Assembly: GCA_963666365.2 (NCBI GenBank)
Contig: CAXXNF010000002.1
Span: 2,080,001 to 2,144,000 of the forward strand
DNA: 64,000 bases
Reading direction: 5' to 3'
Source: Syntrophales bacterium
GTDB taxonomy: Bacteria; Desulfobacterota; Syntrophia; Syntrophales; UBA2210
Positions 30,001 through 36,000 of the stretch are shown here, in pieces; the stretch's first letter is position 1, and every line of letters starts with the position of its first letter. A program made the position numbers.

Positions 30001-33000
30001 GCGCACCTGTGGAAATGACGATGATGCGGGATTTAATTATTGCGAAAAAATTTCATATACAAGAAAATAAGGCTGTCTGACATTTTTTTCACCTTAACAA
30101 AGGAGCATCATATGTTTGAACGAATGCTTTACCCGACTGATTTTTCTGAGTTGTCAGAGAAGGCCCTCCCCTACGTTCTCACGCTGAAAGAGGCGGGAGC
30201 GCACACGATCATCCTGCTGCACGTGATCGACAGCAGCACCCTTGATGCCATGACTCACTATTCCCCTATCGATCTGCTGGAAACCCGGAAGCGGCTCAGA
30301 GATATGGCAGCGCAAAAAATCGAAGCCCTGGCGGCGCAATTTGAAAGCGCCGGGTTTTCGGTAGCAGTCAGAATCGAAGAAGGAATCCCCTTTCGGGAAA
30401 TCCTCCGCGTTGAACAGGAAGAACAGGTGACGAGCATCGTAATGGCATCCCACGGCAGCAGCAACATAAAGGAAATGCTCCTGGGATCGGTTTCCGAACA
30501 GGTGATCAGAAAAGCCAGGACACCGGTGATAGTGATCAAGCGATGACATCTCCGGAATAGGGAATATACAAAGCCGTCTACAGCAAAAAAACACTGAAAG
30601 AAATTGCCGGGATCACGGCATGGTTAAAAAGGAGGAAAGAGTATTTTGAAGATACTGCGCGTCGATATGTCACAACTGAGGATGCAAATGGAAGATCTGC
30701 CCGAGGAGTGGAAGCTGATCGGGGGAAGAGGCCTGATCGCCAAAATCATGAACAAAGAGGTGCCGCCCGACACCGATCCGCTCGGACCGACAAATAAATT
30801 AATCATTGCCGCGGGACCGCTGGCGGGAACTATGGCGCCGCAAATGGGGCGCATATCGCTGGGATGTAAAAGCCCTCTGACATTGGGTATCAAAAAATCG
30901 AATGTAGGAGGGCCGACGGCGCAGAAGCTCGACAAGCTCGGCATTCGGTCAGTCATCATAGAAGGGGCGCCGCAAAACGGCGATTTGTATATTCTGAAAA
31001 TTTCCAAAGAGGGTGCGGCACTTGAAAAGGCTGATGGCTACAGGGGAATGAAGAATTACGCGCTTGCCGACGCACTGTACAAGAAGTACGGCGACAAGGT
31101 TACTCTGATTACCCTCGGCATCGCCGGAGAAAGAAAGTATAAAGGCGCCTCGATTTCTCTCGGAGACATCTACGGAGACCCCTCGCGGGCCGCAGGAAGA
31201 GGCGGTATCGGCGCCGTCATGGGGGCGAAAGGCCTCAAGGCCGTCGTGATCGACGCGGGCGACGCCGGCCAGGTGCCCCTTGCCGACCCCGCACGTTTCA
31301 GGGATACGGTGAGAAGTTGGGTAAACGTGCTCAAAAAAGACGTGGGCTGCGGCCTCTTTCACACCTTCGGGACGCCGCTGGCGGTTTCAAACCTCAGCAT
31401 GGTGGGAAGCATGCCCGCGAAGGGAAACACCTCGGGCAGACATGAGGAATTCAGAAAGGTCAGCGGCGATGCCATAAAAAACAATGTCTGGGAGCGGGGC
31501 GGCAAGATGCACGGCTGCATGCCGGGCTGCGTGGTCCAGTGTTCGATCATCTACAACGGACCCGATGGAAAACGACTCTGCTCCGCCCTTGAATACGAGG
31601 CTATCGGCCTTTTAGGAACGAATCTCGACATTGTGGACCTCGACGCCATCGCCCGCCTTAAATTTCTCTGCGACGATATCGGCCTCGACCTCATCGAAAT
31701 GGGCGGTTCTCTCGTCGTTTCAATAACCGGCGGCAAACTCAAGATGGGGGATGCCGAAGGGGCGATAAAACTTCTCGAGGAAATCGAAGCCGGAACGGAT
31801 TTCGGCGAAATTCTCGGGAACGGCGCCATAGCCACGGCAAAGGCGCTTTCCGTAAACCGGGTACCCGTGTTCAAGGGTCAGGCAATCCCCGCCCATGACG
31901 GCCGGGCCGCCAAAGGCATCGGCGTCACCTATGCCACCAGCCCCATGGGCGCCGATCACAACGCCGGTCTCACCTATAAGATGCCGGGATCGAAAACGGG
32001 CCAGATCGAAAATTCACTGGCCTTTCAGATCAGAGCGGCGGCCTGCGACACGATCGGCTATTGCCTCAATTCCGTCCCCGGCGGTCAGACGTCGATCTAT
32101 GAATTTTTTGCCGATCTGCTTAATGCCCGCTACGGAATGACACTGGCTGTAGATGACCTCGTTGAAATCGGCAAACAGACGCTGAAGGATGAGAACATCT
32201 TCAACAATAAATCAGAATTCAGTAAAATATGGGCCCCTTATCCCGATTTCTATCGAACGGAACCGCTGCCGCCGACGAACAGGGTCTTTGACGTGGAGGA
32301 CAGCGAAATTGAAGATATATGGAACAGGATTGATGCGTACAAAGAGCGTAAAAAACACTTTGAAGTGAGGATTCCCCACCTGCCCCACATGGTAATGGGC
32401 GAAGGCGTCTTCTCAAAGCTCGGCAGTGAAGCGAAAAGGCTTGGGATGCACAGGGCGCTCTTTCTCTGCGACCCCATTATGAAACAGATCGGCAGGGCCG
32501 ATGAAGCAATCGCCAATCTGAAAAAAAACGGAATCGATGCCGTACTCTTTACCGATATTGAACCGGATCCCCCGATTTGGGAAATAGAACACCTAGGTGA
32601 ACTGTACAAAAAAGAAGCCTGTGACGGCATCATCGCCATGGGTGGCGGCAGTTCAATGGATGCAGCGAAGGCGGTTGCCGTGAGGGTCACCCATCCCGGC
32701 CACATGTCCGAGTACGAAAGCCTTGCCGGCGGCACGGGAAAAATAAAGGACATATTGCCGCCCCTTATCTGCATACCCACTACCTCGGGAACGGGGAGCG
32801 AGGCCAATACCTACTCGGTGATCACCGATACGGAGCGGGGCATCAAGTTCATCATCATGAGTGAAATACTCGTGCCCAAGGTGGCGATCATCGATCCGGA
32901 CGTGACTAGAACGATGCCTCCGGGACTCACCGCCGAAACGGGCATCGACGCACTGGCCCATTGCATAGAGGGCTACGTGGGAACGCTCATGCCCTACCAT

Positions 33001-36000
33001 CCCTATTATTCAACGCTGGCCTATTACGGCGTCAAAATGATCGGCTCAAGCCTGCCTCGCGCCTATCATAACCCCGATGACATGCAGGCACGGACGGATA
33101 TGGCCATGGCGGCCATTTACGGCGGCGCCGCCTTTACCAAGGGACTGGGCATCGGACATAACCTCGGCCATGTCATCGGCGCCCGGTATCACATATCCCA
33201 TGGCAAATCGATCGCCCCGGGACTGCTCTGTTTCGCCAGGGCAAATGAGAAGGCCTGCCGGGAGGATTTCGAAGATCTGGCCTGGACTCTTAATCGCTCC
33301 AGGAACCTGGAAGAGGGTCTTCGCACATTATACGAAGAGGTGGGCATGCCCGCCAGATTCAGAGATTTGGGCGTGCCGGAAGAAGACCTGCCACGCATCG
33401 CTTTCGAGGCATCAAAGGACGTGGTCAACATCGCGGGCAATCCCATACCTTTGGAGGAGAAACATTTTTTGTCGCTGCTTAAAGAATTTTACTGAAAAAT
33501 TTTTATGTAAGCAGAAACTCTTATACCACCGATTCCGACAGGGCGCCTTCGATACTTCTATTCGAAGGCGCCGCCGACCCCTCGCTCCCTTTGCGGATAT
33601 ACTTTTTCAGACGCAACATACCTATGTAATGCAAAACGCAGCTCATTGGCGCCCACCTCCCATATTGTGGGGACCCGATAGTGAAAAAGCGTAGGGAATA
33701 GGGTGAGATATGTATAAAAATATCTCCTATTATTCATAAACGCCACTAAAAAAAGGAGGATTTACCATGAAAGGGAGTACTCGAAATTGGAGACTGTCAC
33801 TTATCGGCCTGGCTGTGATCTGGACACTGCTCATGTCGGCTTCGGTTGTTGCACAGGAGGTCGCCGTCACCGACAAGGGGTACAAGGCTGTTCGTCTTGC
33901 CGCTGACACCCCCTTCCCCGGCGCGAACGGGGCTACAATAGGCGCCGACGGCAATCTCTATGTGAGTCACACCGGCAACGGCACAATAACGAAGATAGAT
34001 CTTACGTCAATGAAGGCAACACCCTTCGTCAGTCCCTATCAGGCGGCATTCATTATAGACGATATTGCGGCAGACGATAAGGGAAACATCTATGCTACAG
34101 GGACCACGCCGCTGGTCGGGGAGGTGTACCGTATCGACAAAAACGGAGTGCGCACGATTATCGCCGACGGCATGGCGGCGCCGAACGGGATCGAATACAA
34201 TCCGCGTACGGGGAGACTCTTTGTCACGGAATGCTTCCAGGGAAACCGCGTCTATGAGGTTGATCCTGCCGGCATAAAAAAGGCGCGACTCCTGATCGAC
34301 AAGGACGTGATTCCCGTCCCTGAAGGATTCGACTACGATCCCGATACAAACGATTTGATCATCCCCGACCTGGGAACGGGGAAAATCCTGAGAGTCCATC
34401 CCGATACGGGCGCGATCAGCACCATAACCGACAAGGTTCCCGCCTGCATCGCACTTGCGATAGGTCCGGACAAAATGATTTATGTGCCGGCCCTTTCCGG
34501 TGTGGTGTACCGGGTCAGTCTGGATGGTTCCAAGGTGGAAAAACTTGCCCAGTTGACTCCCGGTCTGGACAACGTGGCGCTCACCAAAGAGGGACGACTC
34601 TTTGTCACCAGTTACTGGGATGCCACAGTCTACGAAGTTGCCACCGACGGAAGCGGCAAATTCACGCAGTTATTCCCTATGGGACCCAATCAGCCTCTCG
34701 GCGTTGTCGTAAAAAAGGGGGCGATCTTTGTTGCCGATGCAATCATGATACGAACCGTTGCGGATGGAAAATATAACCAGACCAAGCTGAACGCCTGGGC
34801 TGCTCACGGCATGCCTCTGACACTGAGCTTGACTGACGGTCCCGGGGATCAGCTTTTCTGGACCGATTGCATTCACGGCGCCGTGGCCATAGGGAATCCT
34901 TCAACAGGAGAGTTCAAACCTGTGGCGGGTGGGCTGGCACGACCAATCGCTGCACTTATGAGCAGTGACGGATCGCAGCTCTTTGTGGCTGAATTTGCCG
35001 CGGGACAGATTACTGCCATCAGTTTAAAGGACGGTGCAAAAAAGGTGCTCGCACAGGACCTCGAAGGCCCTCTCGGACTGGCGCTCATCGATGGCGCCCT
35101 TTATGTGGCAGAAGCAAAATCGGGGCGCATCAGCAAGGTCGATCCCCTTTCGGGAAAGAAAGAAGTGTTTGTTTCATCCATGGTAGGAAAACCGGTTGCT
35201 CTCGCCAATGATGGCGGCGACACGTTGCTCGTGCTCGACGGCGCCGGACAGAGAATCATCAGGATCTGCCCGAAGACCCTGGCAATGACCCTCATCGCAA
35301 AGGACGTTCCCGTGGGATACAGTCCTATCGGAAGCTACCCCTCTGTGGAGTTTCCTTCTGCCATGACGGTATGTGCCAAGGGAAACATCTATTTTACTAC
35401 GGCGGACCGCGGCCTCATTAAACTTGAAAAAATCAAATAATGACGCCCTTCAAAGGCGAATGCTCCCTGCCTTTCGGGCAGGGAGCATTCGTGTGTTCAC
35501 AAAGATGTTCATGCCGCGTTTTACACATCACTGAAGCTGATATCGGTTTCACCTCTTGGAAGCGGTATGATATACACAGGTTTACGCGTTCTCCGCAATA
35601 CCCGTTCCGCCACGCTGCCCAGAAAGGTATTTGCAATCGAGCCCTTGCTGTGCGTGCCCATGACGATGACATCGCAGTTGCGCTCATCGGCCGTTCGCAA
35701 TATAACCTCCGCCGGATACCCCTCTTCGACGATAATTTCGTCCTCCCGTCCGACGGCATCGGGGTCGTCGGCAAGTTCTTTTTCCCTGATCACATTCCAG
35801 CGTTCCCTGAGCTTCTCCAGGCTCTGCTGAATATTTAGTTCGGCAAATTTCTGTTTGTCCTTTTCGCTCACATAGAGATCCATCCAGACCCGCGCATTCT
35901 GAGGCAACGGTTCGATGACATGAAGCGTCACCACTTCCGCATCATGCTTCTGCGCCGTGTTGATTGCATAGCGAAAGGCATAGGCCGAATTTCTGGAAAG

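What a model noticed while it worked through the whole genome (the two positions that open the first line are those of the whole stretch)
30646..33495. Tungsten-type aldehyde:ferredoxin oxidoreductase fused to an iron alcohol dehydrogenase
g03140 (949 aa) is one polypeptide made of a complete AOR-family (AFOR_N+AFOR_C) domain followed by a complete iron-containing alcohol dehydrogenase. I read it as a natural single-chain 'acid-to-alcohol' (or alcohol-to-acid) module that passes the reactive aldehyde from one active site to the other, using ferredoxin on one side and NAD(P)H on the other. Such a fusion is rare and, if active, would be a ready-made part for biocatalytic reduction of carboxylic acids to alcohols.
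Evidence so far: pfam.tsv: AFOR_N aa 2-203 (E 3e-59), AFOR_C 225-542 (E 2e-49), Fe-ADH 581-751 (E 9e-50), ADH_Fe_C 762-948 (E 1e-37). search_genomes with the whole protein in 100 other Desulfobacterota genomes: 43 have AOR-type matches at E<=1e-100, but only 1 (G097, 61% id, open frame 969 aa) matches over aa 1-949; the other matches stop at about aa 553-595; two of them sit in frames of 963-968 aa whose C-parts did not match. Neighbours: universal stress proteins, SatP, an acyl-CoA ligase. The genome has further free AORs and an Aldedh-FeADH (AdhE-like) g00208. Paper search: 1 paper holds all four terms, an electrosynthesis review (listing only).
(Added by a program. Inside this text positions count along the whole contig: contig position 2,080,001 is position 1 of the stretch shown here. 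"Call 12" and the like, gene names such as g00115 and contig names such as C1 are that model's own, and its searches are not shown. The text may have been shortened before it was handed on; [...] marks where a part breaks off. The agent that wrote the report below was given it as the finding of a first reader that could run no searches.)

Follow-up and report, generated by a model that had tools for sequence, protein, structure and literature searches.

The report
Conserved AOR–iron alcohol dehydrogenase fusion enzyme
One gene really does join a complete tungsten-type aldehyde oxidoreductase to a complete iron alcohol dehydrogenase; the fusion is old, common in syntrophic bacteria, apparently unstudied, and probably converts a carboxylic acid and its alcohol into each other on one protein.

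Summary
Window 30646-33495 (+) is one open 949-aa gene with an AOR module (aa 1-560), a short conserved linker, and an iron-type ADH module (aa 581-949). All cofactor ligands I checked are invariant in 122 of 122 full-length relatives. Both halves have the same low dN (about 0.085). AlphaFold gives one compact body (pLDDT 93.4, pTM 0.91).

All 120 best database clusters carry the four domains. I found 77 loci in species genomes, and 44 of 301 genomes of the window's own order have it. Other forward fusions and reverse-order ADH-AOR fusions arose separately.

The most likely function is consecutive acid/aldehyde/alcohol conversion, with ferredoxin on one side and NAD(P)H on the other and the aldehyde kept on the enzyme. 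Hand-over between the sites was not tested.

New lead: in sister clades the gene sits beside 4-hydroxybutyryl-CoA dehydratase, or inside a succinyl-CoA synthetase/succinate dehydrogenase operon. That suggests succinate, succinic semialdehyde and 4-hydroxybutyrate as substrates. The window's own clade keeps only a universal stress protein gene upstream.

This scan found the same family five times before on other DNA. I found no paper on it.

The parts
30630..30635 (+). Shine-Dalgarno AGGAGG, 10 nt before the TTG start
   Evidence: Read directly from the sequence.
30646..33495 (+). AOR-Fe-ADH fusion gene, 949 aa plus stop
   Evidence: ORF list and translation. Pfam. 100% match to database protein P0002, which was called from the later ATG.
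30646..32325 (+). AOR module, aa 1-560 (AFOR_N plus AFOR_C domains 2 and 3)
   Evidence: Pfam. 1aor_A E 2.7e-61 by sequence. Foldseek E 1.3e-36, TM 0.85 on the target. Free relatives of 557-580 aa match aa 2-560.
31516..31542 (+). Cluster motif C291-x3-C295-x3-C299. The fourth Cys is C473 at 32062-32064, in the DxxGxC motif.
   Evidence: Alignment to 1aor_A. All four Cys are invariant in 122/122. Of 83 free relatives, 74 have CX3CX3C only.
32326..32385 (+). Linker, aa 561-580, with conserved W572, E573 and R575
   Evidence: Near-invariant columns. Modelled as coil with pLDDT 88 and 71.
32386..33492 (+). Iron-type (group III) alcohol dehydrogenase module, aa 581-949
   Evidence: Pfam Fe-ADH plus ADH_Fe_C. 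8zwd_B E 2.5e-59. Foldseek TM 0.91-0.92 on targets. GGGS 666-669, D768, H772, H838 and H852 invariant in 122/122.
30112..30546 (+). Universal stress protein gene, 100 nt upstream on the same strand. It is the only neighbour kept in the window's own clade.
   Evidence: Pfam Usp 2.2e-29. ATG with AAGGAG upstream. tblastn finds it just upstream of the fusion in L001, L002 and L003 at 57-60% identity.

Best explanation
This is a two-module enzyme for two consecutive two-electron steps between a carboxylic acid and its primary alcohol.

- The N-terminal module is an AOR-family enzyme: a metallopterin (most likely tungsten) plus one [4Fe-4S] cluster. It interconverts acid and aldehyde with ferredoxin.
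- The C-terminal module is an iron-type, NAD(P)-dependent alcohol dehydrogenase. It interconverts aldehyde and alcohol.
- Fusing them in a fixed geometry keeps the aldehyde at very low free concentration. That would couple the unfavourable acid reduction to the favourable aldehyde reduction. In the reverse direction it would yield one reduced ferredoxin and one NAD(P)H per alcohol, which would suit syntrophs.

Shown here: the gene and its frame, both complete domain sets, conservation of all checked cofactor ligands, equal purifying selection on both halves, wide distribution, repeated independent fusion, and a confident compact model.

Inferred: both activities, the electron carriers, tungsten rather than molybdenum, hand-over of the aldehyde, the physiological direction, and the substrate.

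Gene order in sister clades points to succinate / succinic semialdehyde / 4-hydroxybutyrate. In this genome the context is only a stress-protein gene plus, converging from downstream, carboxylic-acid uptake and activation genes.
For: Domains and folds.

Ligands invariant in 122/122 full-length forward fusions:
- AOR: R69, R185, C291, C295, C299, E316, Y317, E318, D343, H438, D468, C473.
- ADH: GGGS 666-669, D768, H772, H838, H852.
- The 122 are all forward-order proteins of 930-1010 aa then in hand. Dropped were P0002 (the window's own protein from a later start) and the three reverse-order proteins P0210, P0225 and P0238.

Selection: dN against L001 is 0.085 (AOR) and 0.087 (ADH), with synonymous sites saturated. 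Mean column conservation is 0.77-0.79 (AOR) and 0.73-0.74 (ADH).

Model: pLDDT 93.4, pTM 0.91 for the whole chain, linker pLDDT 88/71.

Spread.

Independent origins:
- Reverse-order ADH-AOR proteins carry the canonical CX2CX3C motif. Their AOR parts cluster with this genome's own split AOR, support 1.0.
- P0127 and P0130 do not join the main clade.
- The same genome has a Fe-ADH gene 11 nt upstream of a free AOR gene (L078 4493-5764 and 5776-7602).

Tungsten: a WtpA-type tungstate-binding protein is present, 389.8 bits against a cut-off of 242.75.

Context:
- AbfD lies next to the fusion in 19 of 77 loci. It is a true 4-hydroxybutyryl-CoA dehydratase, 1u8v_A E 1.2e-230.
- The L038 operon reads SucC, SucD, carboxyltransferase, OAD_beta, fusion, ACAD, crotonase, SdhC, SdhA, SdhB.
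- In the window, SatP, two CoA ligases and DctPQM lie downstream.
Against: - No activity, metal content or expression data exist. No RNA run was listed.
- Hand-over of the aldehyde was not tested. I had no model coordinates, and complex prediction never accepted the job.
- The cluster motif is CX3CX3C, not the canonical CX2CX3C. PfAOR Tyr427, named among the conserved catalytic residues in PMC13328260 (section 5), is His417 here. So the chemistry could differ from that of studied AORs.
- The best NCBIfam match of the ADH half is the regulatory ErcA (260 bits). All named matches are far below their cut-offs.
- The substrate lead rests on few independent events: about two for AbfD, and about three for the succinate genes. 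It comes from clades only 53-57% identical to the window's protein.
- The window's own clade lies on a long separate branch and has none of these neighbours.
- AbfD is common in the order anyway (183/301), so 40/44 among fusion carriers is a weak enrichment, and related genomes are not independent.
Confidence: 0.6

Rival explanations
1. The protein is a parallel aldehyde scavenger. Both modules are active but work side by side on free aldehydes: one oxidises them, the other reduces them, depending on the cell's redox state. Nothing is handed over, and no net acid-to-alcohol route is intended. Fusion only ensures co-expression.
For: - A Usp gene is the one conserved neighbour in the window's clade.
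- WOR-family enzymes of Classes I-III are described as involved in aldehyde detoxification, among other roles (PMC13328260, abstract).
- Gene contexts vary widely across the family.
Against: - The linker is short and conserved, and the whole-chain pTM is 0.91, which points to a fixed arrangement rather than two tethered enzymes.
- Fusion has arisen repeatedly in both orders.
- In many loci the gene is embedded in catabolic operons rather than stress loci.
Confidence: 0.2
2. Only the AOR half is catalytic. The ADH-like half has become a regulatory, nucleotide-sensing or scaffolding domain, as in the ADH-like regulator ErcA, or it drives oligomer assembly.
For: - The best NCBIfam match of aa 579-940 is ErcA, 260.4 bits, E 2.9e-77.
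- Fe-ADH domains do mediate assembly in AdhE spirosomes. Those structures were matched; their assembly role is recalled.
Against: - The ErcA score is far below its cut-off of 550. Catalytic families score about the same: 4-hydroxybutyrate DH 256, choline DH 255.
- The metal ligands, GGGS and the TTSGTGSE loop are invariant or nearly so in 122 relatives.
- dN is as low as in the AOR half.
Confidence: 0.07
3. It is a recent neutral merger of two adjacent genes, or an assembly or frameshift artefact.
For: - Split ADH-then-AOR gene pairs exist, also in this genome.
- A few database proteins start or end at the linker (P0126, P0286, P0291, P0310).
Against: - 120 of the 120 best clusters, 77 loci in species genomes and 44/301 genomes of the order carry the same architecture, at 948-950 aa.
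- The main fusion clade is monophyletic in both the AOR tree and the ADH tree, support 1.0.
- Neither half has a close free relative: AOR at most about 46%, ADH at most 39% identity.
- Independent contigs bridge the joint without indels.
Confidence: 0.02

Closest known systems
Two-enzyme AOR plus ADH route for reducing organic acids to alcohols (separate proteins; Thermoanaerobacter sp. X514 and others; PMC10816221, abstract seen in the listing)
   Same: The same two enzyme families and the same predicted chemistry: ferredoxin-dependent acid/aldehyde step, then NAD(P)H-dependent aldehyde/alcohol step.
   Different: Here both are one 949-aa polypeptide with a 20-residue conserved linker. The AOR module belongs to a short (about 570 aa) clade with CX3CX3C, not to the studied 605-aa type.
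AdhE (bifunctional acetaldehyde-CoA / alcohol dehydrogenase)
   Same: An aldehyde-forming module is fused to a Fe-ADH module. The ADH half matches AdhE ADH domains (3zdr_A E 1.1e-44). The logic of shielding a reactive aldehyde is the same.
   Different: The N-terminal module is a metallopterin/[4Fe-4S] AOR, not a CoA-acylating ALDH. No Aldedh match was found. No CoA thioester is involved, and ferredoxin is the predicted carrier in place of a second NADH.
Pyrococcus furiosus AOR (1AOR) and the WOR family, Class I (single WorL subunit; PMC13328260, sections 5 and 19)
   Same: Fold TM 0.85, 31% identity. Thr243, Glu313 and His448 equivalents, both pterin-binding Asp residues and the fourth Cys are kept. 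No WorS- or WorN-type gene lies beside it.
   Different: The Cys spacing is CX3CX3C. Tyr427 is replaced by His417. The dimer-bridging Glu332 is Arg337. The module is about 40 residues shorter at the C-terminus. It carries a fused ADH, which none of the five classes in that paper describes: the main text has 0 occurrences of 'alcohol dehydrogenase' or 'fusion'.
Reverse-order Fe-ADH-AOR fusions (P0210, P0225, P0238; Atlas cluster of 198 members, most often Spirochaetota)
   Same: The same two families on one chain.
   Different: The order is opposite. They have a canonical CX2CX3C AOR with the full AFOR_C profile. Their AOR parts cluster with this genome's free AOR of the split pair, not with the fusion, so they arose independently.
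Clostridial succinate to 4-hydroxybutyrate to crotonyl-CoA route (CoA-dependent succinate-semialdehyde dehydrogenase, 4-hydroxybutyrate dehydrogenase, CoA transferase, AbfD; recalled, apart from AbfD structure 1u8v)
   Same: An iron-type ADH plus AbfD side by side (19 of 77 loci). 4-hydroxybutyrate dehydrogenase is the second-best NCBIfam match of the ADH half.
   Different: The aldehyde-forming step would be a ferredoxin-dependent AOR acting on free succinate, not an NAD(P)H-dependent enzyme acting on succinyl-CoA. The family score is below its cut-off (256 against 500).

Membership tests
AOR / WOR family (large subunit) | N-terminal and C-terminal AOR domains both present (Pfam AFOR_N plus AFOR_C; IPR013983 plus IPR001203 in PMC13328260) | tested here: met
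   201 and 168.7 bits against cut-offs of 29.8 and 27. Fold TM 0.82-0.85 to five solved AORs.
AOR / WOR family (large subunit) | Four Cys ligands of one [4Fe-4S] cluster (PfAOR C288, C291, C295, C494) | tested here: met
   Four invariant Cys (C291, C295, C299, C473; 122/122). The spacing is CX3CX3C, not CX2CX3C. Whether the first three bind the cluster in the same way is inferred.
AOR / WOR family (large subunit) | Pterin-binding and catalytic residues Thr243, Glu313, His448, and the two DxxGxD/C aspartates | tested here: met
   T243, E318, H438, D343 and D468 are invariant. The residue list comes from PMC13328260, section 5. The Asp motifs are recalled.
AOR / WOR family (large subunit) | Tyr427 (PfAOR numbering), listed with the conserved residues of aldehyde-oxidising members | tested here: not met
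   It aligns to His417, which is kept in at least 90% of 68 relatives. The paper says 'most' members, so this does not exclude membership.
AOR / WOR family (large subunit) | Tungsten (not molybdenum) in the cofactor | not testable with these tools
   Indirect only: a WtpA-type tungstate-binding protein is encoded in the genome, above its cut-off.
Iron-type (group III) alcohol dehydrogenase | Fe-ADH plus ADH_Fe_C domains and fold | tested here: met
   167.2 and 127.8 bits against cut-offs of 31.3 and 27. TM 0.91-0.92 to FucO, DhaT and methanol dehydrogenase.
Iron-type (group III) alcohol dehydrogenase | Metal ligands (one Asp, three His) and the GGGS dinucleotide loop | tested here: met
   D768, H772, H838, H852 and G666-S669 are invariant in 122/122. 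Assignment of these positions as ligands is recalled from FucO and read from the alignments.
AdhE | N-terminal CoA-acylating aldehyde dehydrogenase (Aldedh) domain | tested here: not met
   No Aldedh match at E<=0.01. The AdhE model PRK13805 matches only aa 599-858.
4-hydroxybutyrate dehydrogenase (NCBIfam NF058672) | Score above the curated cut-off | tested here: not met
   256.1 bits against a cut-off of 500. This is a lead only, supported by gene order in other clades.
WOR Class I (PMC13328260, section 19) | Single WorL with no adjacent WorS (four [4Fe-4S]) or WorN (FAD) subunit gene | tested here: met
   The neighbours are Usp, an NHL propeller protein and SRAP. The class definition does not foresee a fused second enzyme.

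The most novel reading that the evidence does not exclude
The family is a CoA-independent succinate / succinic semialdehyde / 4-hydroxybutyrate oxidoreductase.

- Together with AbfD it would join the methylmalonyl-CoA/succinate branch (SucCD, carboxyltransferase, Sdh) to crotonyl-CoA and butyrate metabolism (ACAD, crotonase, thiolase) in Smithella-like syntrophs.
- That would explain why those two gene sets share one operon with it.
- It would offer a gene-level candidate for converting propionate-derived C4 units to butyrate. The genes of the Smithella dismutation route are reported as unknown (PMC5606693, passages).
- The window's protein would be a diverged member of the same enzyme family, placed under stress-protein control.
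Probability: 0.2. Interest if true: 0.8.

Novelty: new variant of a known kind. Interest (0 to 1): 0.6.

Why it matters
- AORs are the only known enzymes that reduce non-activated carboxylic acids (abstract of PMC9295118, listing). All studied acid-to-alcohol routes use a separate ADH. A natural, strongly conserved single-chain version is a ready object for biochemistry and structure work, and a possible part for biocatalytic acid reduction.
- Such an enzyme would supply or consume reduced ferredoxin and NAD(P)H one to one. That is relevant to the tight energy budgets of syntrophs.
- The gene-order lead gives a concrete substrate panel to test. If it holds, it would add a new link between succinate and butyrate metabolism in abundant, mostly uncultured digester and sediment bacteria.

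Tried and rejected
- **Complex prediction** (AOR aa 1-562 against ADH aa 576-949): never accepted. The job was not sent on. No result of any kind.
- **Rfam** over 20000-45000 at E<=1: 0 matches, so no Moco/Tuco riboswitch was seen.
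- **Promoter and terminator scan**: counts near chance, not used.
- **Expression**: no RNA holder listed.
- **Paper searches.**
  - 0 papers.
  - 18 papers, 15 listed. The two I opened by passages use 'fused' for other things.
  - 1, 1, 3 and 1 papers. Judging by the listings, none concerns an AOR in succinate/4-hydroxybutyrate metabolism or this fusion.
- **WOR classification paper supplements**: 0 hits in the 46,045 characters held. The large datasets are probably not held, so the fusion may still be listed there.
- **Apparent split form G243:C228**: this is simply a contig end.
- **Search for free relatives of the ADH half**: hits at 50% identity or more are mostly fragments of fusions. Source names vary (alcohol dehydrogenase class IV, choline dehydrogenase, 4-hydroxybutyrate dehydrogenase) and are automatic.
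- **dN/dS ratios**: could not be given for most comparisons because synonymous sites are saturated.

Full report
**1. What is in the sequence**

Window 30646-33495 (+) is one open frame of 949 codons starting at TTG.
- AGGAGG lies 10 nt upstream.
- Homologues begin MKILRV..., many of them with ATG. The TTG start is therefore right, and the database copy called from Met8 (P0002, 942 aa) is short.
- By sequence, the halves match P. furiosus AOR (1aor_A, 2.7e-61, aa 3-543) and Bacillus methanol dehydrogenase (8zwd_B, 2.5e-59, aa 580-935).

The AFOR_C match stops at profile position 345 of 385. This is not a truncation caused by the fusion.
- The nearest free AORs are 557-580 aa and align to query aa 2-560.
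- They end in the same VFDV..E.D motif that the fusion keeps just before its linker.

**2. Is the joint real?**

Yes.
- A contig from an independent run (X5, record 15) spans 30084-32528, across the joint at about 32326-32390. Its indels lie only in the intergenic 30601-30607.
- Records from X6 bridge 32229-33287. X1, probably the source sample, is identical throughout.
- 122 relatives share the frame and length.

**3. Are both halves likely to be active?**

I used the alignment to 1aor_A and an alignment of 122 full-length forward fusions. These were all forward-order proteins of 930-1010 aa then in hand. I dropped P0002 (the window's own protein) and the three reverse-order proteins.

Invariant in 122/122:
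- R69 and R185.
- C291, C295 and C299.
- E316, Y317 and E318 (PfAOR E311, Y312, E313).
- D343, H438 (PfAOR H448), D468 and C473.
- In the ADH half: GGGS 666-669, D768, H772, H838 and H852.

T243 is also invariant.

Three things differ from studied AORs:
- The cluster motif is CX3CX3C. PfAOR C288 aligns to Met288, and an extra Cys299 follows.
- PfAOR Tyr427 is His417 here.
- The dimer-bridging Glu332 is Arg337.

The CX3CX3C spacing is a trait of the whole short-AOR clade. Of 83 free relatives, 74 have it alone, 3 have CX2CX3C alone, 2 have both and 4 have neither.

Position 609, which by a recalled rule separates NAD from NADP users, is Asp in the window's protein. Across the family it is Asp in 76 and Gly in 46.

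Selection acts equally on both halves. Against L001, dN is 0.085 (AOR) and 0.087 (ADH), with synonymous sites saturated.

The genome encodes a WtpA-type tungstate-binding protein above its cut-off.

**4. Structure**

AlphaFold2 with 68 relatives gives pLDDT 93.4 and pTM 0.91 for the whole chain.
- A whole-chain pTM this high is not expected if a 560-aa domain and a 370-aa domain were free to move relative to each other.
- The linker (aa 561-580) is coil with pLDDT 88 and 71. It holds the near-invariant W572, E573 and R575.
- Foldseek finds AORs (TM on target 0.82-0.85) and Fe-ADHs (0.91-0.92). No solved chain covers both halves; the best TM on the query is 0.55.
- I had no coordinates, so I could not check the distance between the sites or look for tunnels. 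The complex prediction never ran.

**5. How common, and how old?**

- In the 5.8-billion-protein collection, all 120 listed best clusters carry the four domains. They are 59-100% identical and nearly all 948-957 aa.
- In species-level genomes, 77 loci were fetched, all from MAGs. They are titled Syntrophales, Syntrophaceae, Smithella/Smithellaceae, Desulfobacteraceae, Desulfomonilaceae and Syntrophobacteraceae, plus two Dehalococcoidia and one Sandaracinaceae.
- In the window's own order, 44 of 301 genomes have a match at E<=1e-200. That is 38 of 201 good-quality genomes and 11 of 72 genera. Four genomes carry two copies; those of G245, G259 and G294 lie in tandem.
- At 50% clustering the family collapses to one representative (P0122). 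Two other forward fusions appear (P0127 at 38% and P0130 at 36% identity), as do three reverse-order ones (Pfam).
- In trees, the main family is monophyletic in both halves, support 1.0. P0127 and P0130 join it only in a clade holding 93 of the 99 tips.
- The AOR parts of the reverse-order proteins cluster, support 1.0, with the free AOR of a split Fe-ADH-then-AOR gene pair in this same genome.
- The Atlas shows a 70-member cluster of the forward type, and a 198-member cluster of 1038-aa proteins carrying both families, probably the reverse-order type, most often from Spirochaetota.
- Neither half has a close free relative: AOR at most about 46%, ADH at most 39% identity.

So the fusion is ancient and selected, and the pairing has been invented more than once.

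**6. Gene context**

In the window:
- A Usp gene (30112-30546) lies 100 nt upstream on the same strand. It is kept in the three closest loci, L001-L003.
- An NHL/SGL propeller gene follows the fusion and is absent from L001.
- A minus-strand cluster converges from downstream: TetR, DctP, DctQ, DctM, two AMP-forming CoA ligases, SatP and a second Usp. These are carboxylic-acid uptake and activation genes.

Across the 77 loci:
- Context A, 19 loci: a gene for a true 4-hydroxybutyryl-CoA dehydratase (1u8v_A E 1.2e-230) lies directly beside the fusion. The usual order is thiolase, AbfD, fusion, ACAD, thiolase, a benzoylformate-decarboxylase-like TPP enzyme, Zn-ADH. In L019, from a distant clade, AbfD lies downstream instead.
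- Context B, 6 loci plus a partial seventh: the fusion sits in an operon reading SucC, SucD, carboxyltransferase, OAD_beta, fusion, ACAD, crotonase, SdhC, SdhA, SdhB (L038).
- Context C, 7 loci: most read DctP, HAMP, SnoaL, an unknown 270-aa protein, fusion, SDR.
- Context D, several loci: Liv-type ABC transporters flank the gene.

Contexts A and B are sister clades. The number of independent associations is therefore small: about two for AbfD, and about three for the succinate genes if L066, L023 and L031 are counted.

AbfD is present in 40 of the 44 fusion-bearing genomes of the order and in 143 of the 257 others. This enrichment is weak, and related genomes are not independent.

The window's genome has an intact AbfD orthologue elsewhere (L079 6517-7980) with a CoA ligase nearby.

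**7. Most likely mechanism**

The protein is a bifunctional acid/aldehyde/alcohol oxidoreductase. From established properties of the two families, the AOR side uses ferredoxin and the ADH side uses NAD(P)H.

From recalled redox potentials (no tool result backs these):
- The acid/aldehyde couple lies well below ferredoxin.
- The aldehyde/alcohol couple lies above NAD.

Each step therefore depends on the other keeping the aldehyde scarce. That gives a selective reason for a rigid fusion and for its repeated origin.

The direction is open. Alcohol oxidation would yield reduced ferredoxin and NAD(P)H one to one, which would suit hydrogen- or formate-releasing syntrophs. Acid reduction would serve as an electron sink.

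The context in clades A and B makes succinate, succinic semialdehyde and 4-hydroxybutyrate the best single substrate guess. I put that at about 0.2-0.3 for those clades and lower for the window's own diverged clade.

**8. Relation to what is known**

- The chemistry matches the two-enzyme AOR-ADH route (PMC10816221, abstract seen in the listing). The design logic matches AdhE.
- The protein passes membership tests for both parent families, with the noted deviations. It is not an AdhE.
- It fits none of the five WOR classes as defined in PMC13328260 (sections 5 and 19 read). That paper's main text has 0 occurrences of 'alcohol dehydrogenase' or 'fusion'.
- My literature searches found no description of the fusion, nor of an AOR in a succinate-to-4-hydroxybutyrate step. 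Subscription journals are not covered, and the large supplementary tables of the classification paper were not visible.
- This scan noted the same family five times before on other genomes, with the same general reading. None of those notes mentions AbfD or succinate.

**9. Verdict**

The fusion is real, conserved and uncharacterised, and it joins two known enzyme kinds: a new variant of a known kind. Interest is moderate to high. The architecture is not rare and its general chemistry is predictable. But it is untested and biotechnologically attractive, and the gene-order lead now makes its physiological role directly testable.

Noticed in passing
G000:C1:1174493-1177602 (L078 4493-7602): The same genome has a split pair: a Fe-ADH gene (423 aa) followed 11 nt later by a canonical 608-aa AOR gene. 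That AOR clusters (support 1.0) with the AOR parts of reverse-order ADH-AOR fusions from other organisms.
   Followed up: partly
whole genome G000: There are thirteen AbfD/HpaB-family matches in this 4.0-Mb genome. Only one (C2:338535-339992, 65% identity) looks like the true 4-hydroxybutyryl-CoA dehydratase orthologue. The rest are 30-42% identical and of unknown substrate.
   Followed up: no
G245:C30:8703-14549; also G259 and G294; G272 has two copies about 6.5 kb apart: Two copies of the fusion gene occur in several Smithella-like genomes, in tandem in three of them and next to AbfD. This suggests division of labour between copies.
   Followed up: no
window 33767-35440 (+): A 557-aa NHL/SGL beta-propeller protein (ScyD/ScyE-like) lies between the fusion and the downstream Usp. 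It is absent at this place in the closest relative, L001.
   Followed up: partly
window 43107-44327 (-): A 406-aa TetR-family protein has two TetR_N stretches (a duplicated repressor). It heads the minus-strand DctPQM, CoA-ligase, SatP and Usp cluster.
   Followed up: no
L022, L024, L029, L032, L044, L049, L051 (about 4400-9800 in each): A third conserved setting of the fusion reads DctP, HAMP protein, SnoaL-like protein, a 270-aa protein with no Pfam or NCBIfam match, fusion, SDR. All are on one strand.
   Followed up: no
proteins P0126, P0286, P0291, P0310: A few database proteins at 52-55% identity end or begin exactly at the linker (aa 550-563). They may be true split forms of the fusion or frameshifted copies. 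Their contigs could not be fetched.
   Followed up: no
L033 12132-13709 (+) and relatives: A benzoylformate-decarboxylase-like TPP enzyme (6m2z_A E 1.2e-41) and a Zn-ADH lie downstream of the fusion in context A. This is a second possible aldehyde source and sink in the same operon.
   Followed up: partly
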